Positions 10,621-21,962 of a stretch of 32,000 bases of DNA are shown in pieces. The notes under the pieces are model-generated. The model was not told the DNA's origin, searched no databases, and saw only the letters and a list, made by a program, of their open reading frames with translations. Source of the stretch: Desulfocapsa sulfexigens DSM 10523 (lineage in GTDB: Bacteria; Desulfobacterota; Desulfobulbia; Desulfobulbales; Desulfocapsaceae); NCBI RefSeq assembly GCF_000341395.1, contig NC_020304.1, positions 3,060,001 through 3,092,000 on the forward strand, given 5' to 3'. Position 1 is the first letter of the stretch; every line of letters begins with the position of its first letter. Both the position numbers and the translations under genes were made by a program.

Positions 10621-11712
10621 CTATGAATCTTTCTTCTCGTCGATTCTCTGAAGCCCCTCCATCATCATCCCCATGAATCCACCGATGGGTTGGGCTTTGT
10701 CAAGTACGTCGGGAACCCCCCTAGTGTAACTGAAATGACCACTCCTCATCCCAAGAAGTTCATAAATCACATGCTTACCGCGAAACTCCAGGTAACGGGC
10801 GTAGACGATTTCTCCCTCTTTAAAAAAAACCATTCCCCGTCCTTTGTCCAGGGCAAGATCCAGGGTTCCTGTTTTCCTGGAAGAGTTAATCAGCTGTAGA
10901 AGATCAACCGGTGATACCTCGGAAAGTTCTCCGGTCATTCCCGAGCTAATCTCGCCTGACTTAAGCGCAACTTTCTGTGCCTGGTCCACCAGCAATTTAA
11001 ATAAGAACATCTGAAGCACAGGGAATTTTTTCAGTATTGCTTTGAAATTCTTAATACTGAGCACTGCCATTTGTGTTGTTTTAACAGAAAAAATAGAGTG
11101 CACAAACGGCTCTGTTGAAAGCAGGCTCATTTCACCAAACATTTCCCCTTCTCCAATTTCAGCCAGCTGACTACCATCGTCAGCTTTTCTTTCTACCAGA
11201 CCCCTTAATATTATGAAAAAATTGGTACCAGGAGTTCCTTTTTTCACGACCACCTTGCCAAAGGGAATACTTTTGAATTCAAGGAGCATTATGAGATCTC
11301 TCAGGGAATCATCTTCAAGAGATTTAAATAAATTAAGCGCACGCATAACTCCAAAGTACCTTTCAAGATGCTTTTTTCGACGAATTTCTTCGGCCTCTTC
11401 GAGTAATTTCATCTGCAATGTGGCAAAATCCTTATCTCTCTTGTGCTCAAAAAATATTTTTCCAACACAGCCACCGCAATCATATCTGGATTTCTGGACG
11501 GATACTTTTGAAAATGCACCGAAATTTTCCTTTTTTGAGGCGACAATGGATGCAATTTTCCCGGCAAGATACAGGCAACCCGGTTTATAGGCTGACATCG
11601 TCAAGCCAGAGCTTTCAACTTTGATTTCATCACCCACACTGTAAAATGGGCATGACTCTTCGGCGACTATGATGAATATCGCATCAGAAAATGTATCTTC
11701 TTTTTTATCCAT
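10621..11712 (-). CDS. cyclic-nucleotide-binding domain protein with C-terminal DUF4388 (PatA-N-like) domain and Cys-containing N-terminal domain
   Basis: Central cNMP-binding fold (GTPGTNFFIILRGLV...GEGEMFGEMSLLS). C-terminal DUF4388-like segment (VSPVDLLQLINSSRKTGTLDL...GMVFFKEGEIVYA). N-terminal ~95 aa carries CPFYSVGDE, PGC and CGGC. GAGG RBS. Confidence 0.8.
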   Translation of the reverse strand: MDKKEDTFSDAIFIIVAEESCPFYSVGDEIKVESSGLTMSAYKPGCLYLAGKIASIVASKKENFGAFSKVSVQKSRYDCGGCVGKIFFEHKRDKDFATLQMKLLEEAEEIRRKKHLERYFGVMRALNLFKSLEDDSLRDLIMLLEFKSIPFGKVVVKKGTPGTNFFIILRGLVERKADDGSQLAEIGEGEMFGEMSLLSTEPFVHSIFSVKTTQMAVLSIKNFKAILKKFPVLQMFLFKLLVDQAQKVALKSGEISSGMTGELSEVSPVDLLQLINSSRKTGTLDLALDKGRGMVFFKEGEIVYARYLEFRGKHVIYELLGMRSGHFSYTRGVPDVLDKAQPIGGFMGMMMEGLQRIDEKKDS

Positions 11713-11933: not shown

Positions 11934-12656
11934 TCACTTTTTCTTCTTACGAAGTCTAAAACCTATAAGACCAGCAAAACCTGTTCCCAAAAGAAGCATA
12001 GTTGCAGGTTCTGGAACCGGGGCAATGTCATTTTCATACATCAAGTTATCTGTATCTGCTCGAAAGGTCAAATAGTCCCCTACGCCAAAATAGCCCTGAT
12101 AATTAGCAGCTGTGCTGGTAAAATCAATATTAAGATATCGATACAAATCTCCTACTGGCGCAGCGCCGCCTATTTGTACAGCTCCACTATAAGTAGCGGT
12201 AATATCAAAATTTCCAGTAGAGTTCGTTACCGTGAATGGGTAACCTGCCCCTGAATTAGCAGTACCTTCTGTCTCTTTCAAGACGTCAAATACTGCATTG
12301 CCTGTTCCGGCATCAATGAAGATACTTTGTATTGTCTTACTAGTATATGGTTCCAGGATACCTAGCACCCAGGATTGAGAATATGAATCCCCTATAGAAC
12401 CAAGTGTGAAGCCACCTAAATCAGACACTCCTCCAGCCAGGCCACCAGGACTGGACCATGTGAAGTCGGATATGCTATCGTCTCCCCAGGTAACTTTTAC
12501 GGACATTCCTGCCATCATGTCAAAAGTTGTTGCGTAGGCGTAAACTCCAGCAGTCGTCTGTGCAGGGGAGGGAAGGTAATTAACAGTAAGAGCATTTGCA
12601 TTACTGCCCCATACCAATAAAAACATTACTGAAAAAACGATTAAAATGTTTTTCAT
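11934..12656 (-). CDS. PEP-CTERM sorting-domain protein
   Basis: Signal peptide (MKNILIVFSVMFLLVWGSNANA). C-terminal tail VPEPATMLLLGTGFAGLIGFRLRKKKK. GGAGGG RBS. Confidence 0.88.
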   Translation of the reverse strand: MKNILIVFSVMFLLVWGSNANALTVNYLPSPAQTTAGVYAYATTFDMMAGMSVKVTWGDDSISDFTWSSPGGLAGGVSDLGGFTLGSIGDSYSQSWVLGILEPYTSKTIQSIFIDAGTGNAVFDVLKETEGTANSGAGYPFTVTNSTGNFDITATYSGAVQIGGAAPVGDLYRYLNIDFTSTAANYQGYFGVGDYLTFRADTDNLMYENDIAPVPEPATMLLLGTGFAGLIGFRLRKKKK

Positions 12657-12981: not shown

Positions 12982-13839
12982 TTACATTTTTCCAAAAAGA
13001 ATTCTTTCTTCTTTGAAACGAATGGTACCTCCTTCCAGAAAAATACGAACTATATGAATACTCATATCGTTGCTGCCAAAATTTTCATAATAGAGAAACA
13101 TGTTATCGTCGTTGGAATGATTGCAAGAGGACAGGCTACCGCACATAAAATGGAAAAAGGTGTGTCCATGATAGAGATCGGTTGTCCGCATCAATTCAAG
13201 TTCGTGGGTATGACCACAAAAGACATATTCAATTTTATGCTTTTGAACAAAGTCAATCAGGACGGAGGAGTTTTTCAGAGGGCACTCATCGGTACCCAAA
13301 ATGGAATGATGGGTCAAAAGCAGTGGCAGGTCATATTCCAACCGGTTGATTCTCTCTGAAACTACATCCAGAACCTCTTTTTCCACAAAGCCATCATCGC
13401 TGTAGAGTTCATTGGAATCAATGTTGATGATCAATACAGACTTTCCATTAATTGAAATGGATTTAATAAAATTTATATCGGTAAAGTTTTCACGAACCTT
13501 AGTTATTTCCCGGTTCAAAAAAAGGTGTTTCTTTTGGGTTTGTACTGATTCAGGGATGTGGATGATTTCGGTATTATAAATGTATTTTTGAAAGAGTTCA
13601 TGGGAACGCATATTTCTTTTGTCATGATTACCGATGGTGGATAAGACGTCTTTGCATTTGATACCAGCCAGGAAAAGCCCTGCTGCAATATATTCATCCT
13701 CCAGGCCATCTGTTGTGCTATCTCCAGTGTTGATAACGATATCGGCATTAAAGGAATTTAACTTTTCCAGTAGAATCTGATCATCTCCCTCCCAGTGTCG
13801 GGGGCCGAAATGCAGATCAGAAATGTGTAAAATATTCAT
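12982..13839 (-). CDS. metallophosphoesterase (calcineurin-like)
   Basis: Motifs in order: ISDLHFG, GDSTTDG, GNHD, HH, GHTH. AAGGAA RBS. Confidence 0.85.
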   Translation of the reverse strand: MNILHISDLHFGPRHWEGDDQILLEKLNSFNADIVINTGDSTTDGLEDEYIAAGLFLAGIKCKDVLSTIGNHDKRNMRSHELFQKYIYNTEIIHIPESVQTQKKHLFLNREITKVRENFTDINFIKSISINGKSVLIINIDSNELYSDDGFVEKEVLDVVSERINRLEYDLPLLLTHHSILGTDECPLKNSSVLIDFVQKHKIEYVFCGHTHELELMRTTDLYHGHTFFHFMCGSLSSCNHSNDDNMFLYYENFGSNDMSIHIVRIFLEGGTIRFKEERILFGKM

Positions 13840-14078: not shown

Positions 14079-14112
14079 AAAAAAAGGCAGGGCCAAATTA
14101 ATGGCACTGCCT
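14079..14112 (-). terminator. rho-independent terminator ending the 18.5-14.2 kb operon
   Basis: Stem aggcagggcc/ggcactgcct (one mismatch), with an A7 run on the plus strand, which is U7 after the hairpin on the minus strand. Confidence 0.7.
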
Positions 14113-14213
14113 TTGTTTCAATACGAATTTACAAGTATACCTATCTTGTTTTGATATGCTAATTCTTTAAAATTACAATCATTTGATCTAAATAGACAGC
14201 CAAGTTAACATGT

Positions 14214-14333
14214 CTAGTTATTATTCAAAAGCCCTTTGGATTCTTTCTTGGCTTTCTTTGCAGCTTTTTTTTCTTTTGGAGTCATTGCCGGTTTTTTCTT
14301 ACCTGCTTTAATGCTTTTTTGTTCTTTACTCAT
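14214..14333 (-). CDS. 39-aa lysine-rich small protein/peptide (MSKEQKSIKAGKKKPAMTPKEKKAAKKAKKESKGLLNNN)
   Basis: The internal ATG of the 91-aa track ORF is preceded by a strong AAGGAG RBS about 9 nt upstream. It lies between the ATP-grasp gene and the operon terminator. I recognise no homology, and low-complexity composition lowers confidence. Confidence 0.45.
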   Translation of the reverse strand: MSKEQKSIKAGKKKPAMTPKEKKAAKKAKKESKGLLNNN

Positions 14334-14491
14334 GTTTTTTTTACTCCTTAATAATTGAAGGTTGATAATCAAGTCAACCATTACAGTGCTGTCTATCTGC
14401 GCTTGGTTGAGGGGTGTTGTTTGTAACTGTATGACACGAAACCTGTGGACTTTTGTAGGTAACCTTATCCTGCCAGGCAACGCATACATGC

Positions 14492-15766
14492 TTATGATCT
14501 TTTTACTCCATCCTCTACCAGCGACTGCTCAATGTCGTTGATCAAATGCATATTTTCGGCCATGATCACAACATTAAAACCGCCAGTAACAGACAACTCC
14601 TTGCAGTTAAGGGGGAGTACAGAATTTAATGTACTGCCGTCATAGAGATGGGGTGCAAGACGATCGGCAAGTTCTGGAAATGAACAGGGCGAGGTTGCTG
14701 TTTTGATGAACTTCCAGAAAGGAACAGGCGTTGCGCTCAACTGCTCTATGTTGTTCACAACCATACTCACATAAGATGACCCATTAAACCGGGCATTGTT
14801 TTCCACTGGAAACACACCGTCTTCACAGACGATATAATCAATTCCTATTACTCCACAATACCCGGATTTAGCCATATCTGTGACGATAAGGTGTGAGGTG
14901 TTATGGATATAGTCATAGATATTTGGGTCTAGTTGTTGACCTTTTATATTGCCAACCCAGACTAATCCCTGTTCGCATACCTGATCCAATATGCCAAAGT
15001 GATCGATAGATCCATCCCGACCAATCGCCCATTGATCATTAGGAGTTGAAGTGACGTCAAGAAAGGGCTCAATAAGTACCTGGTTTTCACCACTATCGGC
15101 AATCTCATGATACAAATCCTCTAAATCCACACCAGTTGTTTTGTATAGGGAATAGGCAGATTCAGCAAGAGTCCCACGAATGATCACGCTTTTGTTGCTC
15201 ACGAGGTGACGCCTTATAATAGCGATCATTTCGTGGCTGTTTTCTTTGTCTTCTGGATGGAGAGTAAATGTGTCTCCAGCAACAACGGGGATTTCCAGCT
15301 GTTGGCATATGGCTTTAAACTTACCTTTGTCGTTGTATTTCTGAGCAACCGCCTGAGAAGTGCCAAAGTGTTCGGCACCAAGGATTTTGGCAGCCTTTTC
15401 TTCCAAATATCCACTGAACCATGGTGTGTAGACAGGTTTCTGACCCAAGTGTTCGATAACTTTCAATACTGGTCCGGGATCTTCAATAATAAGCTCAGTG
15501 AGGCTTGTATCCGTGGACAAAGCATTATATTCTATGACATGGTTGCTTCCCAGACTACATGAGCGTAACCAGTCATAGTAATCGTGGTCCAAGGAAGTAC
15601 GCAAAATCACCAAGTCATCTGGACCAGCTGCCGCAACTGCCCTGTCACATTTTGAATGTACTGAAGCATCACGTCTAGGAAACTGAGAGAAACTATCAGC
15701 CCCATAGATCACAAGTTCATTGGTATTATCGGAAATGCATTTTCTAAGAGATTTAGAGGCTGTCAT
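14492..15766 (-). CDS. ATP-grasp superfamily carboxylate-amine/peptide ligase
   Basis: 424 aa with ATP-grasp C-terminal half motifs: VLIEPFLD and GVIGIDYIVCEDGVFPVENNARFNGSS (Mg/ATP site). A long N-terminal pre-ATP-grasp-like region precedes them. Starts 10 nt after the upstream gene. Confidence 0.8.
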   Translation of the reverse strand: MTASKSLRKCISDNTNELVIYGADSFSQFPRRDASVHSKCDRAVAAAGPDDLVILRTSLDHDYYDWLRSCSLGSNHVIEYNALSTDTSLTELIIEDPGPVLKVIEHLGQKPVYTPWFSGYLEEKAAKILGAEHFGTSQAVAQKYNDKGKFKAICQQLEIPVVAGDTFTLHPEDKENSHEMIAIIRRHLVSNKSVIIRGTLAESAYSLYKTTGVDLEDLYHEIADSGENQVLIEPFLDVTSTPNDQWAIGRDGSIDHFGILDQVCEQGLVWVGNIKGQQLDPNIYDYIHNTSHLIVTDMAKSGYCGVIGIDYIVCEDGVFPVENNARFNGSSYVSMVVNNIEQLSATPVPFWKFIKTATSPCSFPELADRLAPHLYDGSTLNSVLPLNCKELSVTGGFNVVIMAENMHLINDIEQSLVEDGVKRS

Positions 15767-15776
15767 CCTGTATTTT

Positions 15777-16436
15777 TCAGCTGGCCTGGCTAATCAATAA
15801 TTTCCAGCCATAAATAAATGTTATGAGCAAAGAGTAAATCATGAGAACGTAATACCAACGACCCGACAACTTAGGGGTTTTGATTGGGGCCACGTTCATG
15901 GCAGCAAATACAATAAGGATGATATAGAGAGTGATAGAGGCAAAAGGTTGGTCAAGCATACCGATAAATAGAAAGACAAAGGGCAAAATAATCGCATTGT
16001 TGTCCATTGCCAGCCCCATGTAGGTTGACTCACCAACCAGGCCAAATACATTGAAATAACTAAGTCGGAGTACCCCGGCTGCTACGATAAGAAAAGCTCC
16101 AGGCAGGAACCAGGGGCTGAAGTTCCCGTAACTGAGCAATATAACCGCCGGGCAGATGCCAAAACTGATAATATCAATCAATGAATCGAGTTGTCCCCCG
16201 AAATTCCGTTGGTTTTCGTTCCGACCGTTCATGTTACGGGCGATAATGCCATCAGTCCAGTCAAAGAATACTGCCCAGATCAGGCCAATCATAGCGGCAG
16301 AAAAGACACCTAGAATCGCATAATACATAGACAGAACTGCGCATAAAAGTCCCACCAAAGAACATATATTTGGAAGATCTTGAGCAAAAGAGAGTATGGA
16401 AGGGGAGGGTTCCGATAAATTTGTACCTGACATCAT
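15777..16436 (-). CDS. CDP-alcohol phosphatidyltransferase family protein (PssA-like by motif)
   Basis: 219-aa multi-TM protein with the complete family motif DWTDGIIAR-x12-GGQLDSLIDIISFG (DxxDGxxAR...GxxxDxxxD). 4-nt overlap with the upstream PLP-enzyme gene. Confidence 0.88.
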   Translation of the reverse strand: MMSGTNLSEPSPSILSFAQDLPNICSLVGLLCAVLSMYYAILGVFSAAMIGLIWAVFFDWTDGIIARNMNGRNENQRNFGGQLDSLIDIISFGICPAVILLSYGNFSPWFLPGAFLIVAAGVLRLSYFNVFGLVGESTYMGLAMDNNAIILPFVFLFIGMLDQPFASITLYIILIVFAAMNVAPIKTPKLSGRWYYVLMIYSLLITFIYGWKLLISQAS

Positions 16437-17536
16437 TCTATCTCCAAACCAATAACAGCTTGCAATGCTTCGACCAAACGCAGATTCTCAGGTTGGGTAC
16501 GGCTCGCTATCCGGAGATATCGCTCAGATTCCGGCATTGTCTTACCCTGACAGTGCTTTATATAAATAGTATGTTCTAGAAAAAGTTTTTTAGTTATTTC
16601 TGGACCGGATGCCGCATGGTCAGGTAATCGACAAAAAATATAATTGGCATCAGGATGATAAACTGTCATTCCGGGAATTGCCTTGAGTTGTTTATAAAAG
16701 AGGTCGCGATCTGCTTTGACCTTGTTGCAGCTTTCAGTAAATTTCTGTCGATACTGTGGAGCAAGACGGAGGAATTCCTCAGCGAAACCATTAATATTCC
16801 AAATGTGAATTTCCTGACGAATTTTTGACGCAAAATCCTGGTTCGCTGTTAGCATGTACCCTATTCTGATGCCGCAGATACCATAGGCCTTACTCATGCT
16901 TTTGAAAATTGTTAGATTTGGATATTTCTCAATGTCCTGCTCAAGAGTTTCCTGGTCACCATTTCCTGCAAAATCAATGAAAGATTCATCAACGATGAGC
17001 ATGCAGTCGTAGGCTGCTAATTTCTCAAGCAAACGGATAATCTCTTTTTTGGGAATCAGCAATGAAGTGGGGTTGTTGGGGCTGACTACCACTGCCAATC
17101 CTGCCTTGCACCGGATTGCCTCTGCTGCGAATTTATCAACATCCAGCTGAAAGGAAGGCGCCTCAAGCGGAAACTCAACTACGTTTCCAGCTGGCATGGC
17201 ATTGGCGTATTCATTGAACGACGGCACCGGTACAATTAATTTACGATTCATCCCAGCTATAATTTTAATAAGCTCTGCAGCTCCGTTGCCAACCACAATA
17301 CACTCAGGCGGCTGGCCAATCAGGTCGCCTATCAGGCAGGCCAAATCGTGCTGCCCCATTGGGTAGTTTAAAACCAATTGATGTATGTGACTGGTAATAT
17401 GTGTGAAAAAAGATTCTGGCGGGAAGTAAAGGTTGTATAGGTAGTTGTGATCGATAAAATCATGCCGCCAAAAGCCGCCATGCTGGCTGGTGATATATTC
17501 GTAGCGTTCTTTATTTGTCGAGTATTTTTTTGTCAT
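16433..17536 (-). CDS. class I/II-fold PLP-dependent enzyme, CobD (phospho-amino-acid decarboxylase)/HisC-like
   Basis: 367 aa. N-terminal HGG...DF motif as in CobD-type enzymes. SPNNPT, IVDESF and the PLP-lysine context SMSKAYGICGIRIGY are all present. Confidence 0.85.
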   Translation of the reverse strand: MTKKYSTNKERYEYITSQHGGFWRHDFIDHNYLYNLYFPPESFFTHITSHIHQLVLNYPMGQHDLACLIGDLIGQPPECIVVGNGAAELIKIIAGMNRKLIVPVPSFNEYANAMPAGNVVEFPLEAPSFQLDVDKFAAEAIRCKAGLAVVVSPNNPTSLLIPKKEIIRLLEKLAAYDCMLIVDESFIDFAGNGDQETLEQDIEKYPNLTIFKSMSKAYGICGIRIGYMLTANQDFASKIRQEIHIWNINGFAEEFLRLAPQYRQKFTESCNKVKADRDLFYKQLKAIPGMTVYHPDANYIFCRLPDHAASGPEITKKLFLEHTIYIKHCQGKTMPESERYLRIASRTQPENLRLVEALQAVIGLEIE

Positions 17537-17558
17537 TAATCTCTTTATTGGTGATGGA

Positions 17559-18491
17559 TTACTGAGGTAACGTTGAAACTGAAGTCATTGTTGCGGACAT
17601 CTCTAAAACCTGATGGTGACGTGGAATTCTTTTGGTTCGAGGAATGGCTGTCCTAAGTTTAAACGCTGAAGAATTAACCGTATCGCTTTGATTGGTTAAT
17701 GCGTGGCCATTCATAATAGTAGCTGGATGGTGATAGAGGTCACATACTTTTTCAGCTGCTCGTAAATCAGCTATGGTGTCAATTTCATACCAGCGGCTGG
17801 CATCAAAGAAAACAGGCGTAAAAGAAAGGCAGCCCTCGTTGACCATATCAGCAAATACGGTCTCATAGTAGCCATTCACCATATTTTGTGAAATTTGGTG
17901 ATCCAGTCTTTCCTTAACAAGTTGCCAGGTCTCAAATGAAAGGCTGTAAATGTTGACGGTTTTATACTGGTTTTCATTGTGTTTATGGGAACCGCAATAA
18001 AATTTTTCAATTTTCCGCTGGTTATTGATTGCTACTGTCGTACCACTCATCCAGGGATGCAAACTCGCGACCGCAATTCGGTCAGGATAAAGCATCCCTT
18101 CAAGCATTTTTGGCTCGAAAACAAGATCACTTTCTATAAGTAGGAAGGGTTCATCTATCATTTTCCGTGCAAGCCATAATGAGTAAATGTTGTTGGTTGA
18201 GTTGTAGAGGGGGCTGGTAATATAATTAATTTCCATACCTCCGGCATGGGTTCCAAGAAAATCACGGATGCAGTCAGCTTGATGGCCAACAACTATAACC
18301 AGACGTTTGAAATTGTGTAGTTGGAGGGAGTGAATCAGCCTCTCAAGAATGGATATTTCATTTACAGAAACAAGGCATTTAGGTGACGTATCGGTCAGAG
18401 GAGAAAGGCGACTACCCGTTCCCGCAGCCAATAAAAGCGCAGTACGGACTTGTTCATTCTTGAGACCGGGATTAATAGTCCTGTCCTTCAT
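17559..18491 (-). CDS. LicC-family nucleotidyl(cytidylyl)transferase with ~55-aa C-terminal extension
   Basis: LLLAAGTGSRLSPLTDTSPKCLV nucleotide-binding loop. YNSTNNIYSLW and WYEIDTIADL align by eye with S. pneumoniae LicC. The ATG at 18491 has a GAAGG RBS; the track ORF starts at an upstream TTG at 18506. Confidence 0.85.
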   Translation of the reverse strand: MKDRTINPGLKNEQVRTALLLAAGTGSRLSPLTDTSPKCLVSVNEISILERLIHSLQLHNFKRLVIVVGHQADCIRDFLGTHAGGMEINYITSPLYNSTNNIYSLWLARKMIDEPFLLIESDLVFEPKMLEGMLYPDRIAVASLHPWMSGTTVAINNQRKIEKFYCGSHKHNENQYKTVNIYSLSFETWQLVKERLDHQISQNMVNGYYETVFADMVNEGCLSFTPVFFDASRWYEIDTIADLRAAEKVCDLYHHPATIMNGHALTNQSDTVNSSAFKLRTAIPRTKRIPRHHQVLEMSATMTSVSTLPQ

Positions 18492-18926
18492 ATATATTAC
18501 CTTCAATTTTATAACCAGACCATGGCAGTGACAACAACTGACAAAAACACGATGCAGTTTAGGGGATGGAAAACTCTTATTATTTTCTGCCGAATACCTG
18601 AAATGAAAAAGTTAAAAGGCACAAAGAACTGGTAGAAAGTGAAACTGGAACAAAGAACAGGTGAAAAGAAATCTTAGAAATGAGGACTGAAAATGGGAGG
18701 TATACGAAAAAAGGGATTCAATTAGCGGAAAACTGTATGCCCAATTCGGGAAAATCAGGACCTACAATAGAGCGATAGCGCAGGTAAGTCAAGGATATTC
18801 TGTTATTTCTGAAATTTCGAAGCTGCAATATTCGGCTAACTTGCCTAATTTGTGGACATTAAAGGACAAATAAAACCTGTGCTGATTAACGTAACTGACA
18901 AAGTACTCCGTATGGAGAAATGGGTT

Positions 18927-19007: not shown

Positions 19008-20237
19008 TCAGGTAATTTGAGACTCTCGGTTAGGAATCCACATTTGACTGGGATCGGTTTGAATATCGCTAGTAAGATTGCCAGGATCACCTACACGAAT
19101 ATGCCAGGGTTCGAAACGAACTCCAAGTTCGTTTTCCTGTCGATAGCGAAGATCTCGAAGATGGATAAAGCCTTGGGAAAAAAGGGTAACAAAAAGGGGT
19201 GTTGTTATAAACTCTTTGCGAAAATTGTAGGGTTTGAGTTTGCCATTTTTTAAGCCAATATCAAAATCATGTTGAGCGTGCCATGAATAACCTGGAGGGG
19301 CGAGTGACCTGGATGCGGCCGAGAGATTTATAAGATGGAAGCCCTTGTCGAGGACAAATTCTTTTCGTTCATTTCTCTTTAGGATTTCTGGGAGAGATTG
19401 ATTCTTGAGCATGGCAACATCAGCTTCAATTCTATTCCAGTCTTTTTTTAAATCATAGACATGGGCAAGCTGGGGTGTACCACTTTTAAGATCAAGGATC
19501 TTTACTTCACTTTGTCGTGGGACCTGAGTCAACCGGACTGCCTTCCTGAAAAAGAGACGCATCTGTTTTGGTATATTACGGATCCCGGAAGTTACCTGCA
19601 TGTCTGATTGGGAGATTGAATTGTTACCACTACTCAAGTTGTCACTGACCTGTTTTTTGATCCTGAAATATTTTTCCTGGGCCTCTCCTTTTCGAAGAAA
19701 ATTACCGTCTGTTAAGATCAGGTTTTTCGGGTTTATCCGGTAATTCTTGTCGTAAATAACTCGTTCACCATAAAAACCATACGCTTTAGCATCGATCGCA
19801 AATATCTGATCCATGAACTGTTCTTCAAGTTTTGTGAATGGCAGGGTTCTTTCTGGTTTTCCTCCTAAATGTCTTCCTGTATTTCGCTGTTGTCGTGCTG
19901 CATAGGCGACTGTGGGCAAATCAATAAAATTGAAATTGGAGTACCCAACTAGATTCTGTACTTTGCTTAATTTGTTGTAACAAGAATAAATAAGAACCAT
20001 CTGCTCCGGAGTTGCCCAGACATCACCAGGATAGTTTGTGTCCGGATCTTTAATTTTTCTCAACCCGGACAACATTTTTTTATAAATGGCAGCCCGTTGC
20101 TCATCTTCTGATTGACCAAAACAATGTTTGGAATCCAGGAAAAGAGAACTGACCGTTGCCAGGCAGGAAAGTGAAAGAAAGGTTCTTCTATTGAAAGGTT
20201 CTGAAGATGTGTGAGAGAGAAATGATAGAATATCCAT
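19008..20237 (-). CDS. Tat-signal peptidase M15 (VanY-like D,D- or L,D-carboxypeptidase) family protein
   Basis: Twin-arginine motif NRRTFLSL followed by a hydrophobic stretch. VanY-like motifs in order: SGIRN...Q, PGYSWHAQHDFDIG (SxH...D) and FEPWHIRVG. Confidence 0.7.
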   Translation of the reverse strand: MDILSFLSHTSSEPFNRRTFLSLSCLATVSSLFLDSKHCFGQSEDEQRAAIYKKMLSGLRKIKDPDTNYPGDVWATPEQMVLIYSCYNKLSKVQNLVGYSNFNFIDLPTVAYAARQQRNTGRHLGGKPERTLPFTKLEEQFMDQIFAIDAKAYGFYGERVIYDKNYRINPKNLILTDGNFLRKGEAQEKYFRIKKQVSDNLSSGNNSISQSDMQVTSGIRNIPKQMRLFFRKAVRLTQVPRQSEVKILDLKSGTPQLAHVYDLKKDWNRIEADVAMLKNQSLPEILKRNERKEFVLDKGFHLINLSAASRSLAPPGYSWHAQHDFDIGLKNGKLKPYNFRKEFITTPLFVTLFSQGFIHLRDLRYRQENELGVRFEPWHIRVGDPGNLTSDIQTDPSQMWIPNRESQIT

Positions 20238-20759: not shown

Positions 20760-21962
20760 CTAATAGATCATTGATGCATCGTGAACGATTTGTTTCATTT
20801 CCCTTACCGCTTGGTCAAGCCCCACAAAAACAGCACGTGCAATAATAGCATGGCCTATGGAGAGTTCCTCGATGGTGTCAAGTGCAGCTATTCGAGCCGT
20901 GGTCTGGTAATCGAGCCCGTGTCCCGCATTCACTCTTAGTCCCATCTGGTAGGCTTCTTCAGCTGCAGTTGCGATAAGCTGGTATTCTTTTTCCCGATCG
21001 GTTTCGGTGGTGGCATCGCAGTAACGTCCTGTGTGAATTTCCACGTAAGTGGCCCCGATTGAATGGGCTGCTTTTACCTGCTTAACATCAGGATCTATAA
21101 AAAGTGAAACCGGAATTCCAGCATTATCCATACGTTTTATTGTTTTGGCCAATTTCTTTTTTTGACCGACAACATCCAAACCGCCTTCAGTCGTGAGTTC
21201 TTGACGTTTTTCAGGAACCAGGGTTACCATGTCAGGTTTGAGGGAAATGGCTATCTCAATAATTTCTTTATTTGCGCCCATTTCCAGATTCATTCGGGTT
21301 TTTATGGTCTCCCGAAGCAGGCGAACATCACGATCATTGATGTGGCGTCTGTCTTCACGCAAATGAACCACGATTCCGGCTGCACCTGCAAGTTCACATA
21401 TGGCGGCAGCTGCAACAGGATCCGGCTCTGTTATACCACGAGCATTACGAACGGTTGCAACATGATCGACATTGATTGCTAAATTGGTCATTTGACTACT
21501 CCTGGAATTATGTAATTGGGAAATAAGTTTTTTTTCAAGTTCCCACATGGCAAAGGCCTCGTCTTCAGAACGCTCATGGTCGTATCCGAGAAGGTGGAGG
21601 AGACCATGTGTGAGAAGCCATGTAAGGCGGTCATGAAGGGAGACATCAAGCTCAACTGCTTCCCTCTGGGCAGTTTCGACTGAGATAATAATGTCGCCAA
21701 GTTCTTTTACGGAGGCGACATAGGGGATATCAATTTGATCATTTCCGGAGGAGAAGGGAAAGGAAAGAACATTGGTTGGCCCCTGTTTGTCACGATAATT
21801 GCTGTTCAGCCAGCTGATTTCTTCATCATCGACAAACAGAACAGAAACATCATAATCGGAAACACGATTTTGGCGCATAAGCCATGATGCGCGTCGTTGC
21901 AGGAGTTTTTCGTTTATCCGAAAAAGTGAGGTGTCATAATTAAAAGTAAAATGGGCGCCCAT
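20760..21962 (-). CDS. ybeY-pdxJ: in-frame YbeY (rRNA maturation endoribonuclease) - PdxJ (pyridoxine 5'-phosphate synthase) fusion ORF
   Basis: Residues 1 to ~150 carry the YbeY zinc motif HGLLHLLGYDH. Residues 158-400 are a full-length PdxJ (MTNLAINVDHVATVRNARG, HLREDRRHI, EIHTG, NAGHGL). No stop codon separates the two parts. The internal ATG at 21489-21491 is preceded by AGGAG. Confidence 0.85.
   Translation of the reverse strand: MGAHFTFNYDTSLFRINEKLLQRRASWLMRQNRVSDYDVSVLFVDDEEISWLNSNYRDKQGPTNVLSFPFSSGNDQIDIPYVASVKELGDIIISVETAQREAVELDVSLHDRLTWLLTHGLLHLLGYDHERSEDEAFAMWELEKKLISQLHNSRSSQMTNLAINVDHVATVRNARGITEPDPVAAAAICELAGAAGIVVHLREDRRHINDRDVRLLRETIKTRMNLEMGANKEIIEIAISLKPDMVTLVPEKRQELTTEGGLDVVGQKKKLAKTIKRMDNAGIPVSLFIDPDVKQVKAAHSIGATYVEIHTGRYCDATTETDREKEYQLIATAAEEAYQMGLRVNAGHGLDYQTTARIAALDTIEELSIGHAIIARAVFVGLDQAVREMKQIVHDASMIY

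What the first reader, a model, noticed from the sequence alone, without database searches (positions are those of the whole stretch)
14214..18506. Compact operon combining LicC-like cytidylyltransferase, CobD-like PLP enzyme, CDP-alcohol phosphatidyltransferase and ATP-grasp ligase: candidate undescribed phospho-aminoalcohol conjugate pathway
Seen in sequence: the four enzyme genes on the minus strand are packed with a 22-nt gap, a 4-nt overlap and a 10-nt gap. The small ORF follows 158 nt later. The unit is bounded upstream by about 420 nt of non-coding DNA and downstream by an intrinsic terminator (14079-14112). All catalytic motifs are intact (see features). Established knowledge: CobD-type enzymes decarboxylate O-phospho-L-Thr or O-phospho-L-Ser to amino-alcohol phosphates. 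LicC-type enzymes convert phospho-alcohols to CDP-alcohols. CDP-alcohol phosphatidyltransferases form phosphodiesters from either CDP-DAG (PssA, PgsA) or CDP-alcohol donors (DIPP synthase, choline/ethanolamine phosphotransferases). ATP-grasp amidoligases join carboxylates to amines; the Campylobacter capsule genes Cj1436-1438, as I recall them, ligate ethanolamine-P or serinol-P this way. Inference: together these could build an N-acylated or N-aminoacylated amino-alcohol phosphodiester. The product could be a new lipid head group, a decoration of an exosortase-associated polysaccharide, or a soluble phosphodiester solute. I do not recognise this four-enzyme arrangement as a characterised pathway. 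No kinase for the phospho-amino-acid substrate is encoded here. The metallophosphoesterase at 12982-13839 may or may not belong to the pathway.
Basis: partly seen in the sequence, partly recalled or inferred. Interest (0 to 1): 0.78.

Follow-up and report, generated by a model that had tools for sequence, protein, structure and literature searches.

The report
Mobile phosphoserine-to-CDP-ethanolamine gene cassette
This Desulfocapsa operon is one version of an uncharacterised gene cassette, shared by marine sulfate reducers, Bacteroidota and methanogenic archaea, that most likely turns phosphoserine into CDP-ethanolamine, attaches phosphoethanolamine to an unknown acceptor and then adds an amide-linked group.

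Summary
Window 14492-18506 (minus strand; Desulfocapsa sulfexigens, UWK_02760 region) carries four tightly packed genes: a LicC-like nucleotidyltransferase, a CobD-like PLP enzyme, a PssA-like CDP-alcohol phosphatidyltransferase and an ATP-grasp ligase. A verified terminator closes the unit.

The same order recurs in nearly all of 80 genomes that carry the ATP-grasp. These include Desulfobacterota, Bacteroidota, Chloroflexota and Methanosarcinales/ANME-2 archaea, all from marine or saline sites. Archaeal and bacterial copies are as alike as bacterial copies are to each other.

The four-gene set is not the basic unit. The core is the trio nucleotidyltransferase, PLP enzyme and transferase. The fourth gene varies: the ATP-grasp, a very conserved metallophosphoesterase (the window's 12982-13839), a phosphoethanolamine-N-methyltransferase-like gene, or nothing.

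In rare variants an aminoethylphosphonate-transaminase-like gene replaces the CobD-like gene. These lines point to phosphoserine → phosphoethanolamine → CDP-ethanolamine → transfer, with late, optional ATP-grasp amidation.

The acceptor, and whether the product is a solute or a lipid, is unresolved. No curated family or accessible paper describes the cassette. The small ORF and the exosortase link are not supported.

The parts
18764..18792 (-). Promoter-like site (TTGACT, 17-nt spacer, TATTGT) upstream of the operon
   Evidence: Consensus scan, 9 of 12 matches. The TTGACTTAC block is conserved in the upstream regions of Desulfobulbales relatives. It is a consensus match only and has not been shown to work.
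18492..18755 (-). Conserved 5' leader of about 260 nt between the promoter-like site and the first gene
   Evidence: nhmmer finds homologous leaders in six Desulfobulbales-type loci (L005 at E 1e-26, L006, L069, L011, L077, L007). The conserved blocks are TGCCYTTCAGC...CCAATCGGCAG and AACTGCATCGTGT...CCATGGTCTGGTT. There is no Rfam family match, and only weak structure and covariation support.
17559..18491 (-). LicC-like nucleotidyltransferase; presumed CTP:phosphoethanolamine cytidylyltransferase (ORF extends to a TTG at 18506)
   Evidence: Pfam NTP_transferase and NTP_transf_3. Best solved relatives are LicC 1JYK (50.9 bits), the PntC-AEPT fusion 6PD1 (42.7) and IPCT 2XME. It aligns to the full cytidylyltransferase domain of IPCT/DIPPS NF041135 at 60 bits, below the cut-off. 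The TNNIYSLW, YYE and YEID motifs are shared with LicC. It is the first gene of the cassette in almost all loci.
16433..17536 (-). CobD-like PLP enzyme; presumed O-phospho-L-serine decarboxylase that makes phosphoethanolamine
   Evidence: Aminotran_1_2 at E 2e-34. TIGR01140 CobD scores 177.9 bits and TIGR01141 HisC 148.7, both below their cut-offs. Best PDB matches are 6OUX 'threonine phosphate decarboxylase-like enzyme' (137 bits), 3FTB and S. enterica CobD 1LC5. H19-G20-G21, K216, the PNNPT motif and the C-terminal Arg are invariant. Its stop overlaps the transferase start by 4 nt.
15777..16436 (-). PssA-like CDP-alcohol phosphatidyltransferase; integral membrane protein of about 8 TM helices (by length and alignment span against MjPSS); presumed phosphoethanolamine transferase
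   Evidence: CDP-OH_P_transf. NF038087 archaetidylserine synthase scores 98.6 bits (cut-off 240) and TIGR00473 PssA 76.6 (cut-off 107). The best PDB match is M. jannaschii PS synthase 7POW/7B1K. The CDP-alcohol motif is intact but has a 12-residue spacer instead of 8, with an extra invariant R72. The PS-synthase motif GxLRLARF reads GVLRLSYF here.
14492..15766 (-). ATP-grasp ligase of the L-amino-acid/peptide-ligase type; presumed late amide-forming tailoring enzyme
   Evidence: No Pfam hit. Weak NCBIfam and PDB sequence hits to BesA and LdmS. The AlphaFold model has pLDDT 76.6 and pTM 0.78. Foldseek gives BesA 8YI6 at E 6e-18, the Streptomyces peptide ligase 8YND at TM 0.72, then LdmS and PGM1. 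The family is small: 59 representatives at E<=1e-30 among 1.84 billion. It is present in only about a third of transferase-anchored loci.
14214..14333 (-). Small Lys-rich ORF (39 aa, MSKEQKSIKAGKKKP...) with an AAGGAG site; not part of the conserved cassette
   Evidence: Read directly from the sequence. tblastn finds it only in L005 (87%) and L089 (95%), the closest relatives. No family hit.
14079..14114 (-). Intrinsic terminator that closes the operon
   Evidence: Hairpin at -19.4 kcal/mol, z = -4.39, none of 200 shuffles as stable, followed by U7.
12982..13839 (-). Metallophosphoesterase (calcineurin-like); a facultative partner of the cassette on its own transcription unit
   Evidence: Pfam Metallophos at E 1e-16. 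Homologues at 69-89% identity lie next to the cassette in 10 genome loci, including Methanolobus, and in 6 of 44 metagenome loci. In five loci the gene follows the transferase directly, with no ATP-grasp (L088, L100, L137, L140, L157). It also follows a different cassette of PhnW-like gene, DIPPS-like transferase and cytidylyltransferase (L085). The family is larger than the cassette (1156 hits) and occurs alone in M. burtonii. The fold hint to the glycerophosphodiesterase GpdQ comes from a poor model (pLDDT 55).

Best explanation
The operon is one variant of a horizontally mobile CDP-amino-alcohol pathway.

Step 1 (inferred): the CobD-like PLP enzyme decarboxylates O-phospho-L-serine, a universal intermediate, to phosphoethanolamine. 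This explains why no kinase is needed.

Step 2 (inferred): the LicC-like enzyme makes CDP-ethanolamine from CTP.

Step 3 (inferred): the PssA-like membrane transferase passes phosphoethanolamine to a hydroxyl acceptor and releases CMP. This is the logic of the Kennedy pathway and of the inositol-phosphate cytidylyltransferase/DIPP synthase pair.

Step 4 (inferred): the ATP-grasp ligase forms an acyl-phosphate on a carboxylate, most likely an amino acid, and joins it to an amine. It acts as an optional late tailoring step on the phosphodiester product.

The neighbouring metallophosphoesterase is a facultative helper. It either removes a phosphate left by a phosphorylated acceptor, as in the PGP and DIPP routes, or acts as a diesterase for turnover.

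What is shown: gene content, motifs, fold classes, conserved order, cross-domain spread and the modular fourth gene.

What is not settled: the acceptor and the final product. I slightly favour a small soluble zwitterionic phosphodiester, that is a compatible-solute-like molecule (about 0.45), over a new polar-lipid head group (about 0.35) or a decoration of a lipid-linked glycan (about 0.15).
For: Conserved order NTP-PLP-CDPOH-GRASP in almost every one of 80 ATP-grasp-anchored genome loci with enough flank. Identities to the window are 50-75%, 57-81%, 44-73% and 47-77%. The order also holds in Methanococcoides and a Desulfuromonadales MAG.

The core trio is conserved in 80 transferase-anchored metagenome loci. 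The fourth gene is variable.

Four lines point to phosphoethanolamine:
- (a) The PLP enzyme ranks with Thr-P/Ser-P decarboxylases and keeps the HGG motif also seen in a genuine cobD next to cbiB.
- (b) The cytidylyltransferase is closest to LicC (phosphocholine) and PntC (2-aminoethylphosphonate).
- (c) In L055 an AEP-transaminase-like gene replaces the CobD-like gene (TIGR03301, 298.7 bits). AEP is the C-P isostere of phosphoethanolamine.
- (d) In about 8-10 loci the accessory gene is a methyltransferase whose best solved relatives are phosphoethanolamine N-methyltransferases (5WP4, 60.6 bits).

The cassette also occurs in Flavobacteriales and Bacteroidales, which from general knowledge seldom make cobamides. 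This favours phosphoserine over phosphothreonine as the substrate (inference).

The ATP-grasp acts late and is optional. Loci without it interleave with loci that have it at 85-92% transferase identity, and five loci keep only short ATP-grasp-like fragments.

Coupling of an NTP_transferase with a CDP-OH transferase has the IPCT/DIPPS fusion as precedent.

All four proteins are as similar between archaea and bacteria as among bacteria (0.59/0.63/0.69/0.56 against 0.58/0.64/0.68/0.54). This fits substrates that do not depend on the type of membrane lipid.
Against: Every assignment is below the curated family cut-offs.

Decarboxylase and aminotransferase chemistry cannot be told apart from sequence in this family.

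No PEP mutase or phosphonopyruvate decarboxylase lies near the PhnW-like variants. That enzyme may therefore aminate another phospho-carbonyl, which would favour serinol phosphate.

The transferase keeps the 8-TM PS-synthase architecture. In M. jannaschii PSS, helices 7 and 8 enclose lipid tails (PMC8633023), which argues for a lipid substrate.

Two loci carry both the methyltransferase and the ATP-grasp (L087, L161). That is awkward if both act on the same amine.

The match to phosphoethanolamine methyltransferases covers mainly the SAM-binding region.

Loci that lack the ATP-grasp could encode it elsewhere in the genome.
Confidence: 0.5

Rival explanations
1. The amino-alcohol phosphate is (S)-serinol phosphate. 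The PLP enzyme would be a dihydroxyacetone-phosphate aminotransferase like C. jejuni Cj1437, giving CDP-serinol and serinol-phosphate diesters. These would be amino analogues of diglycerol phosphate or phosphatidylglycerol. Serinol phosphate could also serve as a phosphorylated acceptor, followed by the metallophosphoesterase.
For: The CobD/HisC-type fold supports both reaction types. In variants L055 and L085 the PLP enzyme is a class-V aminotransferase, which cannot decarboxylate, and no PEP mutase or Ppd lies nearby. If the variants make the same product, transamination of a universal phospho-ketone is the common reaction. Cj1437 is precedent for DHAP transamination to serinol phosphate (PMC11800397, read). 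A phosphatase partner fits a phosphorylated intermediate.
Against: The CobD model beats the HisC model by about 30 bits in both cassette PLP types. The HGG motif is shared with a genuine cobD. The accessory methyltransferase resembles phosphoethanolamine N-methyltransferases. The cytidylyltransferase is closest to LicC and PntC, whose substrates carry a two-carbon amino head.
Confidence: 0.15
2. The pathway is as in the best explanation, but the ATP-grasp acts early. It would acylate phosphoethanolamine, as Cj1438 does and as CbiB does with aminopropanol phosphate. The N-acyl-phosphoethanolamine would then be cytidylylated and transferred, in the order used for the cobamide nucleotide loop.
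For: Cj1438C uses ethanolamine phosphate or serinol phosphate as the amine nucleophile (PMC11800397). The order CobD, CbiB, CobU/Y, CobS is an exact precedent (established knowledge). A conserved Arg/Lys-rich flexible loop in the ATP-grasp (R32, K39, R42; residues 25-38 have low pLDDT) could bind a phosphate.
Against: The transferase is 85-92% identical between loci with and without the ATP-grasp, and the cytidylyltransferase and PLP enzyme are about equally close to the window's copies in one such pair (L088 against L005). The downstream enzymes therefore appear to handle the same substrate either way. The cytidylyltransferase keeps the LicC-like aromatic/acidic motifs (YYE, YEID) that suit a free cationic amine. 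The ATP-grasp is the last gene of the cassette.
Confidence: 0.15
3. The transferase is still a lipid synthase that uses CDP-diacylglycerol or CDP-archaeol as donor. It would attach a new soluble alcohol, or it would work as a Kennedy-type phosphotransferase onto diacylglycerol/archaeol. The cassette would then make a membrane lipid: a PE/PC-type head group, N-aminoacylated in the window's variant.
For: The closest families and structures are PS synthases. The length and alignment span suggest the 8-TM architecture, and the ELDSLxDxxSFG-type motif, R124 and the P188-K189 motif are kept. In MjPSS, helices 7 and 8 form the cavity for lipid tails (PMC8633023). A methyltransferase-like gene plus a LicC-like gene plus a transferase mirrors the plant/Plasmodium route to phosphatidylcholine. 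Treponema has a LicCA-CPT route (my own knowledge).
Against: With CDP-diacylglycerol as donor the conserved cytidylyltransferase has no role. The hosts are expected to make PE by PssA/Psd already (general knowledge, not checked in these genomes), so plain PE would be redundant. The transferase shows no extra divergence between archaea and bacteria despite opposite glycerol stereochemistry and ether versus ester lipids. The Arg implicated in serine binding is an invariant Tyr. No lipid-synthesis neighbours are conserved.
Confidence: 0.3
4. The PLP enzyme is a true threonine-phosphate decarboxylase. The pathway would then build (R)-1-aminopropan-2-ol phosphate diesters through CDP-aminopropanol.
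For: The best curated match is CobD TIGR01140, and S. enterica CobD 1LC5 is among the top structures.
Against: The score is well below the CobD cut-off (177.9 against 290.55). A separate cobD sits next to cbiB in L002. The cassette has no threonine kinase and no conserved kinase neighbour. It occurs in Bacteroidota lineages that are unlikely to supply threonine phosphate (inference). The methyltransferase and AEP variants point to a two-carbon head.
Confidence: 0.07
5. The ATP-grasp is the missing kinase, for example of serine, and not a ligase.
For: Some ATP-grasp proteins phosphorylate rather than ligate, for example inositol phosphate kinases and the glutamine kinase Cj1418 (my own knowledge). 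This would explain the absence of a kinase.
Against: The closest folds are amino-acid and peptide ligases. About half of the cassettes have no ATP-grasp at all, so it cannot supply the first substrate. Phosphoserine is available in all cells.
Confidence: 0.05

Closest known systems
Kennedy CDP-ethanolamine/CDP-choline pathway (eukaryotes; Treponema LicCA-CPT; plant and Plasmodium phosphoethanolamine N-methyltransferase route)
   Same: The phospho-amino-alcohol is activated with CTP and passed on by a CDP-alcohol phosphotransferase-family membrane enzyme. Some cassette variants add a phosphoethanolamine-methyltransferase-like gene.
   Different: Phosphoethanolamine would come from decarboxylation of phosphoserine by a CobD-like enzyme, not from ethanolamine kinase. 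The cytidylyltransferase has the LicC fold, not the Pcyt fold. The transferase is PS-synthase-like, not CPT/EPT-like. The acceptor is unknown. An ATP-grasp tailoring step is added. The hosts are prokaryotes, including archaea.
Di-myo-inositol-phosphate synthesis (IPCT/DIPPS plus phosphatase)
   Same: A LicC-fold cytidylyltransferase is coupled to a membrane CDP-OH transferase that acts on soluble substrates, with a phosphorylated intermediate removed by a phosphatase. The product is a compatible solute of marine organisms. The window's cytidylyltransferase aligns to the whole IPCT domain of NF041135.
   Different: The genes are separate, not fused. The scores are far below the cut-off (60 against 580 bits). 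The transferase is PssA-like, not DIPPS-like. The substrate is an amino alcohol, not inositol. No inositol-phosphate synthase is nearby.
Campylobacter jejuni Cj1435-Cj1438 glucuronamide decoration
   Same: A CobD/HisC-family PLP enzyme makes ethanolamine phosphate from serine phosphate (Cj1436) or serinol phosphate from DHAP (Cj1437). An ATP-dependent amidoligase joins a carboxylate to that amine, and a phosphatase follows (PMC11800397).
   Different: The Campylobacter system has no cytidylyltransferase and no CDP-alcohol transferase, so no phosphodiester is formed. Its acyl group is a capsule glucuronate and it lies in a capsule locus with glycosyltransferases. The cassette here stands alone in varied contexts.
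Cobamide nucleotide-loop assembly (CobD, CbiB, CobU/CobY, CobS)
   Same: The chemical logic is the same: a PLP decarboxylase makes an amino-alcohol phosphate, an amide bond is formed to a carboxylate, the phosphate is activated with a nucleotide, and a membrane transferase makes the phosphodiester.
   Different: Only the CobD-like enzyme is homologous. The ligase, the nucleotidyltransferase and the transferase belong to other families. A genuine cobD-cbiB pair exists separately in L002.
Phosphatidylserine / archaetidylserine synthase (PssA type II, M. jannaschii PSS)
   Same: These are the best-scoring families and structures. The CDP-alcohol motif, the LDSLxDxxSFG motif, R124 (MjPSS R101), the PK motif and the length of about 8 TM helices are shared.
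   Different: Scores are below the cut-offs. The motif spacer is 12 residues instead of 8, with an added invariant Arg. The Arg linked to serine binding (Cho1 R189, MjPSS R104) is an invariant Tyr. The gene is always paired with a cytidylyltransferase, which a CDP-diacylglycerol-dependent enzyme would not need.
Phosphonate tailoring (PntC cytidylyltransferase with AEP transaminase)
   Same: The cytidylyltransferase is related to PntC (6PD1). Variant cassettes carry a PhnW/AepZ-like transaminase.
   Different: The main cassette has a decarboxylase-like enzyme and no PEP mutase or Ppd. The transfer enzyme is a CDP-OH transferase, whereas the known phosphonate-decoration systems use other transferases (my own knowledge, not tested here).

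Membership tests
CobD, L-threonine-O-3-phosphate decarboxylase (TIGR01140) | Score at or above the curated equivalog cut-off (290.55 bits) | tested here: not met
   177.9 bits.
CobD, L-threonine-O-3-phosphate decarboxylase (TIGR01140) | Fold-type I PLP motifs plus the N-terminal HGG motif | tested here: met
   K216, PNNPT, DESF and H19-G20-G21 are invariant in the family. HGG is also present in the genuine cobD of L002. The role of this His in phosphate binding is from my memory of the CobD structure papers.
CobD, L-threonine-O-3-phosphate decarboxylase (TIGR01140) | Cobamide-biosynthesis context (next to cbiB and other cob genes) | tested here: not met
   No cob genes flank the cassette. L002 has a separate cobD-cbiB pair 4 kb away.
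CobD, L-threonine-O-3-phosphate decarboxylase (TIGR01140) | Decarboxylates a phospho-amino acid | not testable with these tools
   Needs an enzyme assay.
HisC, histidinol-phosphate aminotransferase (TIGR01141) | Score at or above the cut-off (276.55 bits) and a histidine-operon context | tested here: not met
   148.7 bits, lower than the CobD model. No his genes are nearby.
LicC-type CTP:phospho-amino-alcohol cytidylyltransferase | NTP_transferase fold with the GxGxR(L) signature and closest similarity to LicC/PntC | tested here: met
   LLAAGTGSRL is present. 1JYK at 50.9 bits and 6PD1 at 42.7 bits are the top solved relatives. The NNxYSL and YEID motifs are shared.
LicC-type CTP:phospho-amino-alcohol cytidylyltransferase | lic-locus context (licA choline kinase, licB transporter, licD transferase) | tested here: not met
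   None of these occurs in any locus.
LicC-type CTP:phospho-amino-alcohol cytidylyltransferase | Specificity for CTP and for phosphocholine or phosphoethanolamine | not testable with these tools
   Use of CTP is inferred only from the partner CDP-OH transferase.
PssA / archaetidylserine synthase | Score at or above the cut-off (TIGR00473 107 bits; NF038087 240 bits) | tested here: not met
   76.6 and 98.6 bits.
PssA / archaetidylserine synthase | CDP-alcohol motif DGx2ARx8Gx3Dx3D | tested here: inconclusive
   All catalytic Asp, Gly, Ala and Arg residues are present and invariant, but the spacer is 12 residues, not 8, with an extra invariant R72.
PssA / archaetidylserine synthase | PS-synthase-specific motif GxLRLARF, including the Arg that affects the Km for serine (Cho1 R189; MjPSS R104) | tested here: not met
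   The family reads G-V-L-R-L-S-Y-F, and Tyr127 is invariant. The role of the motif is from PMC8727905.
IPCT/DIPPS (di-myo-inositol phosphate synthesis) | Fused cytidylyltransferase and transferase; NF041135 at or above 580 bits | tested here: not met
   The genes are separate, with the PLP gene between them. The score is 60 bits, on the cytidylyltransferase domain only.
ATP-grasp L-amino-acid/peptide ligases (BesA, LdmS, PGM1) | ATP-grasp fold with the Mg/ATP-binding E-x-N motif | tested here: met
   Foldseek E 6e-18 to 2e-15, TM 0.64-0.73, to 8YI6, 8YND, 7R8Q and 3WVQ. E322-N323-N324 is invariant.
ATP-grasp L-amino-acid/peptide ligases (BesA, LdmS, PGM1) | Equivalog-level sequence membership (BesA NF042917 750 bits; LdmS NF047900 475 bits) | tested here: not met
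   38.5 and 31.6 bits. No Pfam ATP-grasp model is hit.
C. jejuni Cj1436-1438 amidation system | A PLP enzyme, an ATP-dependent amidoligase and a phosphatase inside a capsule locus, acting on glucuronate | tested here: not met
   No glycosyltransferase or capsule genes lie near any cassette. The extra cytidylyltransferase and transferase have no counterpart there.
Metallophosphoesterase, GpdQ/CpdA-type phosphodiesterase | Calcineurin-like metal-binding motifs (DxH, GDxxD, GNH, GH) | tested here: met
   Pfam Metallophos at E 1e-16. D8-x-H10, G39-D40, G70-N71-H72 and G209-H210-x-H212 are invariant.
Metallophosphoesterase, GpdQ/CpdA-type phosphodiesterase | Specific similarity to GpdQ/CpdA | tested here: inconclusive
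   CpdA PRK11148 scores 27.5 bits against a cut-off of 225. There is no PDB sequence hit. GpdQ is the top Foldseek hit, but from a model with pLDDT 55 and at TM 0.36-0.40.

The most novel reading that the evidence does not exclude
A horizontally mobile cassette, shared by marine methanogens and ANME-2 archaea, sulfate reducers, Bacteroidota and others, encodes the first prokaryotic de novo route from phosphoserine to CDP-ethanolamine (CDP-choline in the methyltransferase variant). It would make a so far undescribed class of phosphoethanolamine diesters. In Desulfocapsa the product would be an N-aminoacylated form that serves as a compatible solute or as a new polar head group. The same enzymes would work unchanged in both domains of life.
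Probability: 0.4. Interest if true: 0.8.

Novelty: new variant of a known kind. Interest (0 to 1): 0.66.

Why it matters
If the model holds, many marine anaerobes own a self-contained way to make CDP-ethanolamine or CDP-choline from a central metabolite. As far as I know, that chemistry has been documented in prokaryotes only as choline salvage. These organisms drive the sulfur and methane cycles in sediments and cold seeps.

The product would be an unrecognised phosphorus- and nitrogen-containing solute or lipid. That is relevant to osmotic, cold or pressure adaptation, to the interpretation of intact polar lipid and 31P-NMR signals in sediments, and to biomarker work.

The near-equal conservation of a membrane CDP-alcohol transferase in archaea and bacteria offers a natural test of how far such enzymes depend on lipid type.

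The modular fourth gene (ATP-grasp, methyltransferase or phosphoesterase) gives a ready set of comparisons. Each step is directly testable with four small soluble or membrane proteins and cheap substrates.

Tried and rejected
- **Literature.** Ten full-text searches were run. Six were aimed at the cassette itself: enzyme combinations, Methanococcoides, UWK locus tags, serine phosphoethanolamine, CDP-serinol/CDP-aminopropanol/bacterial Kennedy pathway, and phosphoserine decarboxylase. None found a paper on it. The other four looked up comparison systems. Three Raushel-lab papers on Cj1435-1438 were not held. I therefore could not establish what organism or enzyme PDB entry 6OUX is.
- **Regulatory RNA.** An Rfam scan of the whole window found only tRNAs. 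A sigma-54-type pattern was at chance level and absent from the upstream region.
- **Leader structure.** The consensus structure of the conserved leader has almost no covariation, so I make no structural claim.
- **Metallophosphoesterase model.** The structure model was poor (pLDDT 55) because the alignment lacked diversity. Its GpdQ hit is only a hint.
- **Osmoprotectant-transporter link.** An OpuA-type betaine transporter flanks the cassette in only one lineage (L086 and L109, 90% identical) and flanks the lone phosphoesterase of M. burtonii. This is too weak to use as evidence.
- **Exosortase or polysaccharide link.** Rejected. Neither the PEP-CTERM neighbour nor any glycosyltransferase recurs.
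- **Small Lys-rich ORF as an ATP-grasp substrate or carrier.** Rejected as a general feature. It occurs only in L005 and L089.
- **The 355-aa protein of L085 as a divergent ATP-grasp.** No profile match.
- **'Unknown' proteins u150 and u268 in L086.** They turned out to be a split ATP-grasp gene.
- **PEP mutase or Ppd near the PhnW-like variants.** None found.

Full report
**1. What is in the window**

The window comes from Desulfocapsa sulfexigens DSM 10523. The ATP-grasp protein is 100% identical to UWK_02760.

Four ORFs lie head to tail on the minus strand, at 17559-18506, 16433-17536, 15777-16436 and 14492-15766. The spacings are a 22-nt gap, a 4-nt overlap and a 10-nt gap. The first gene more likely starts at the ATG at 18491.

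A 39-codon Lys-rich ORF (14214-14333) with an AAGGAG site follows 158 nt later. A hairpin with a U-run at 14079-14114 is a convincing terminator: -19.4 kcal/mol, z = -4.4. Upstream lie about 500 nt of non-coding DNA with a promoter-like TTGACT-17-TATTGT site at 18764-18792.

Pfam and NCBIfam give the following:
- NTP_transferase for the first gene.
- Aminotran_1_2 for the second (CobD model 177.9 bits, HisC 148.7).
- CDP-OH_P_transf for the third (archaetidylserine synthase 98.6 bits, PssA 76.6).
- For the fourth, only weak hits to the ATP-grasp ligases BesA and LdmS.

Every hit is below its curated cut-off. The proteins therefore belong to these superfamilies but to none of the named families.

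**2. Closest solved relatives**

- The PLP enzyme is closest to 6OUX ('threonine phosphate decarboxylase-like enzyme', 137 bits), 3FTB and Salmonella CobD 1LC5.
- The nucleotidyltransferase is closest to pneumococcal LicC (50.9 bits) and the Treponema PntC-AEP transaminase fusion (42.7 bits). The inositol-phosphate cytidylyltransferase ranks lower.
- The transferase is closest to M. jannaschii phosphatidylserine synthase.
- An AlphaFold model of the fourth protein (pLDDT 76.6, pTM 0.78) matches BesA, a Streptomyces ATP-grasp peptide ligase, LdmS and PGM1 at TM about 0.64-0.73. Biotin carboxylases and PurK rank lower. It is therefore an ATP-grasp of the amino-acid/peptide-ligase type.

**3. The arrangement is conserved, also in archaea**

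A profile of the ATP-grasp found 88 relatives among one genome each of 185,579 species, and 80 were kept. They include:
- many Desulfobacterota;
- Methanococcoides, Methanolobus and ANME-2;
- Flavobacteriales, Bacteroidales and Crocinitomicaceae;
- Chloroflexota, Kiritimatiellales, Chlorobiota and Nannocystaceae;
- Alpha- and Gammaproteobacteria.

As far as the record titles show, all come from marine sediment, seep, vent, crustal-fluid or brine samples.

tblastn with the window's proteins shows the order nucleotidyltransferase, PLP enzyme, transferase, ATP-grasp in almost every locus with enough flank. Annotated contigs of Methanococcoides methylutens and a Desulfuromonadales MAG show the same order. 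The latter also has an ordinary cobD next to cbiB 4 kb away, so the cassette's PLP gene is a paralogue with another role.

Clustering all flanking ORFs found no other recurrent neighbour except a metallophosphoesterase. There is no kinase, transporter, regulator or glycosyltransferase, and the window's PEP-CTERM gene does not recur.

Mean pairwise identities between archaeal and bacterial copies are 0.59, 0.63, 0.69 and 0.56 for the ATP-grasp, the transferase, the PLP enzyme and the cytidylyltransferase. Bacterial pairs at matched ATP-grasp distance give 0.58, 0.64, 0.68 and 0.54. Archaeal copies form one tight group at 0.81-0.87. The cassette has therefore moved between domains, and the membrane enzyme did not diverge more than the soluble ones.

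**4. The four-gene set is not the basic unit**

The transferase family is about ten times larger than the ATP-grasp family: 3507 against 371 hits. The ATP-grasp family has only 59 representatives at E<=1e-30 among 1.84 billion.

I sampled 80 metagenome loci through the transferase and typed them by tblastn. Of these, 44 have at least 1.5 kb downstream of the transferase:
- 15 have a full ATP-grasp;
- 5 have only short ATP-grasp-like fragments;
- 6 have the metallophosphoesterase (3 of them together with the ATP-grasp);
- 2 have a 365-aa methyltransferase;
- 20 have none of these, and in several of those inspected the next gene is convergent.

Across all loci the methyltransferase recurs in about 8-10. 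Contigs L086-L088 show the same three patterns.

Loci without the ATP-grasp interleave with loci that have it at 85-92% transferase identity. The ATP-grasp is therefore gained and lost among close relatives while the other enzymes stay the same. The simplest reading is that it tailors the product late and does not supply the donor.

**5. What the amino-alcohol phosphate is**

Four lines converge on phosphoethanolamine.

(a) The PLP enzyme scores about 30 bits higher on the CobD model than on HisC, in both cassette subtypes. It keeps an N-terminal H-G-G, as does the genuine cobD of L002. It has no cobamide context.

(b) The cytidylyltransferase is most like enzymes that activate phosphocholine and 2-aminoethylphosphonate. 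It shares their NNxYSL, aromatic-acidic and YEID motifs.

(c) In an alphaproteobacterial MAG (L055), a class-V aminotransferase replaces the CobD-like gene. Its best match is the 2-aminoethylphosphonate transaminase model (298.7 bits, cut-off 360.8). The PssA-like transferase (66% identical to the window's), the ATP-grasp and a LicC-like gene are still present. Aminoethylphosphonate is the C-P isostere of phosphoethanolamine.

(d) The best solved relatives of the accessory methyltransferase are plant and nematode phosphoethanolamine N-methyltransferases (60.6, 55.5 and 41.4 bits).

O-phosphoserine is a universal intermediate. This explains why a cassette that moves between methanogens, sulfate reducers and Flavobacteriia needs no kinase. 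Threonine phosphate would not be available in many of these hosts (inference).

Two caveats apply. No PEP mutase or Ppd lies near the PhnW-like variants. The methyltransferase match is mostly over the SAM-binding domain. Serinol phosphate, made by DHAP transamination as by Cj1437 (PMC11800397), therefore remains a real alternative.

**6. The transfer step**

A LicC-fold cytidylyltransferase paired with a CDP-OH transferase has a direct precedent in the fused IPCT/DIPPS enzyme of di-myo-inositol-phosphate synthesis. The window's cytidylyltransferase aligns to that whole domain.

The transferase keeps all catalytic residues: D59, D62, G63, A66, R67, G80, D84 and D88. The spacer is 12 residues rather than 8, and it has an added invariant R72.

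It also keeps PS-synthase features: LDSLIDxxSFG, R124 (MjPSS R101), P188-K189 and a length compatible with 8 TM helices. However, the PS-synthase-specific motif GxLRLARF reads GVLRLSYF. The Arg whose mutation raises the Km for serine in Candida Cho1 (PMC8727905), which aligns with MjPSS R104, is an invariant Tyr.

It is therefore not an ordinary PS synthase, and the acceptor is probably not free serine. In MjPSS, helices 7 and 8 enclose the lipid tails (PMC8633023). Their retention here argues for some hydrophobic ligand. The lack of extra divergence between archaea and bacteria, and the expected redundancy of plain PE in hosts assumed to make it already (not checked here), argue for an acceptor that does not depend on the domain's lipid type. 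I cannot resolve this from sequence.

**7. The metallophosphoesterase**

The window's 12982-13839 gene has homologues at 69-89% identity beside the cassette in 10 genome loci, in different relative positions, including Methanolobus.
- It lies right after the transferase in five loci that lack the ATP-grasp.
- It also ends a different cassette: PhnW-like gene, DIPPS/AIPS-like transferase, an unknown gene and a LicC-like gene (L085).
- Its family is larger than the cassette (1156 hits) and occurs alone in M. burtonii.

It is a recurrent but facultative partner of CDP-amino-alcohol systems. Its role could be a phosphatase of a phosphorylated intermediate, as in the PGP, PIP and DIPP routes. It could also be a diesterase or a CDP-alcohol hydrolase. 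The GpdQ fold hint rests on a poor model.

**8. Comparison with known systems**

The cassette works like a Kennedy- or DIP-type CDP-alcohol pathway fed by a CobD-type decarboxylase. Its amide-forming step recalls Cj1438 and CbiB.

It fails the membership tests for CobD, HisC, PssA, IPCT/DIPPS and BesA/LdmS on score cut-offs, context or motif. It has no lic, cob, his or capsule context.

NCBIfam release 20 (June 2026) has no model that claims any of the four proteins. The ten literature searches, six of them aimed at the cassette itself, found nothing on it. Papers in subscription journals were not searchable, so prior description cannot be fully excluded.

**9. Verdict**

It needs these refinements:
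- a three-gene core with a modular fourth gene;
- phosphoethanolamine as the likely intermediate;
- the ATP-grasp as a late, optional tailoring step;
- the phosphoesterase as a facultative partner;
- no support for the small ORF or the exosortase link;
- wide, cross-domain and apparently marine-only distribution.

I rate it a new variant of a known kind. It has a fair chance of leading to a new class of solute or head group.

Noticed in passing
window 18492-18755 (minus strand); L005 2832-3116, L006 3-231, L069 4712-4922, L011 5145-5273, L077, L007: The long 5' leader of the operon is conserved in sequence among Desulfobulbales-type cassettes. Near-identical blocks include CCAATCGGCAG (present twice in L007 and L077) and AACTGCATCGTGT...CCATGGTCTGGTT. 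There is no Rfam match and almost no covariation. It could be a regulator-binding region or an undescribed cis-regulatory RNA.
   Followed up: partly
window 14214-14333 (minus strand): A 39-aa, very Lys-rich small ORF (MSKEQKSIKAGKKKPAMTPKEKKAAKKAKKESKGLLNNN) with a strong Shine-Dalgarno site lies between the ATP-grasp gene and the terminator. It is conserved only in the two closest relatives (L005 at 87%, L089 at 95%).
   Followed up: partly
L085 2845-7846 (Gammaproteobacteria MAG JAPHSW010000158.1): A different cassette: a PhnW/AepZ-like aminotransferase, a DIPPS/AIPS-like CDP-OH transferase, a 355-aa protein with no family, a LicC-like nucleotidyltransferase and the same metallophosphoesterase (79% identical to the window's). 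This looks like a second uncharacterised CDP/CMP-amino-alkyl-phosph(on)ate pathway.
   Followed up: partly
L154 5126-7203 and L165 6001-8057: Here the PssA-like transferase (about 65-67% identical to the window's) is followed by an octopine/nopaline-dehydrogenase-family protein. The usual PLP and nucleotidyltransferase genes are missing (L165 has only a 25% nucleotidyltransferase hit upstream). This is another variant context.
   Followed up: no
L093, L094, L098, L103, L112 (directly after the transferase gene): Only short ATP-grasp-like fragments remain where the full gene sits in relatives. This suggests in-place decay of the ATP-grasp module.
   Followed up: no
L084 7001-11335 (Methanococcoides burtonii CP000300); L109 6606-9958; L086 1-1227: An OpuA-type glycine-betaine ABC transporter lies next to the lone metallophosphoesterase in M. 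burtonii. It also lies next to the core cassette in one metagenomic lineage. The link to osmoprotection is suggestive but too sparse to count as evidence.
   Followed up: partly
L036 7011-7541: A transposase-like ORF (my reading of the sequence as Y1/REP-associated; not checked against any family library) sits just upstream of a lone ATP-grasp gene that has no cassette partners within 8 kb. This would fit rearrangement or mobility of the module.
   Followed up: no
L088 (assembly GCA_013166765.1, labelled Methanococcoides sp. SA1, contig JABKBV010000020.1): This contig carries cassette genes 71-82% identical to Desulfocapsa's, together with bacterial-type neighbours (a HAMP-guanylate cyclase protein, BatD and VWA proteins). 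It may be a bacterial contig inside an archaeal assembly.
   Followed up: no
window 20760-21962 (minus strand): A 400-aa ORF appears to be a fusion. The N-terminal part has a YbeY-like motif (HGLLHLLGYDHE) and the C-terminal part looks like PdxJ (pyridoxine 5'-phosphate synthase). This is read from the translation only.
   Followed up: no
window 10621-11712 and 11934-12656 (minus strand): A protein with cNMP-binding and DUF4388 domains and a PEP-CTERM protein lie downstream of the metallophosphoesterase. Neither recurs next to the cassette in other genomes.
   Followed up: yes
window 19008-20237 (minus strand): The upstream neighbour is a 409-aa VanY-like D-Ala-D-Ala carboxypeptidase-domain protein with a twin-arginine-like N-terminus (NRRTFLSL). 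It is not conserved next to the cassette.
   Followed up: partly
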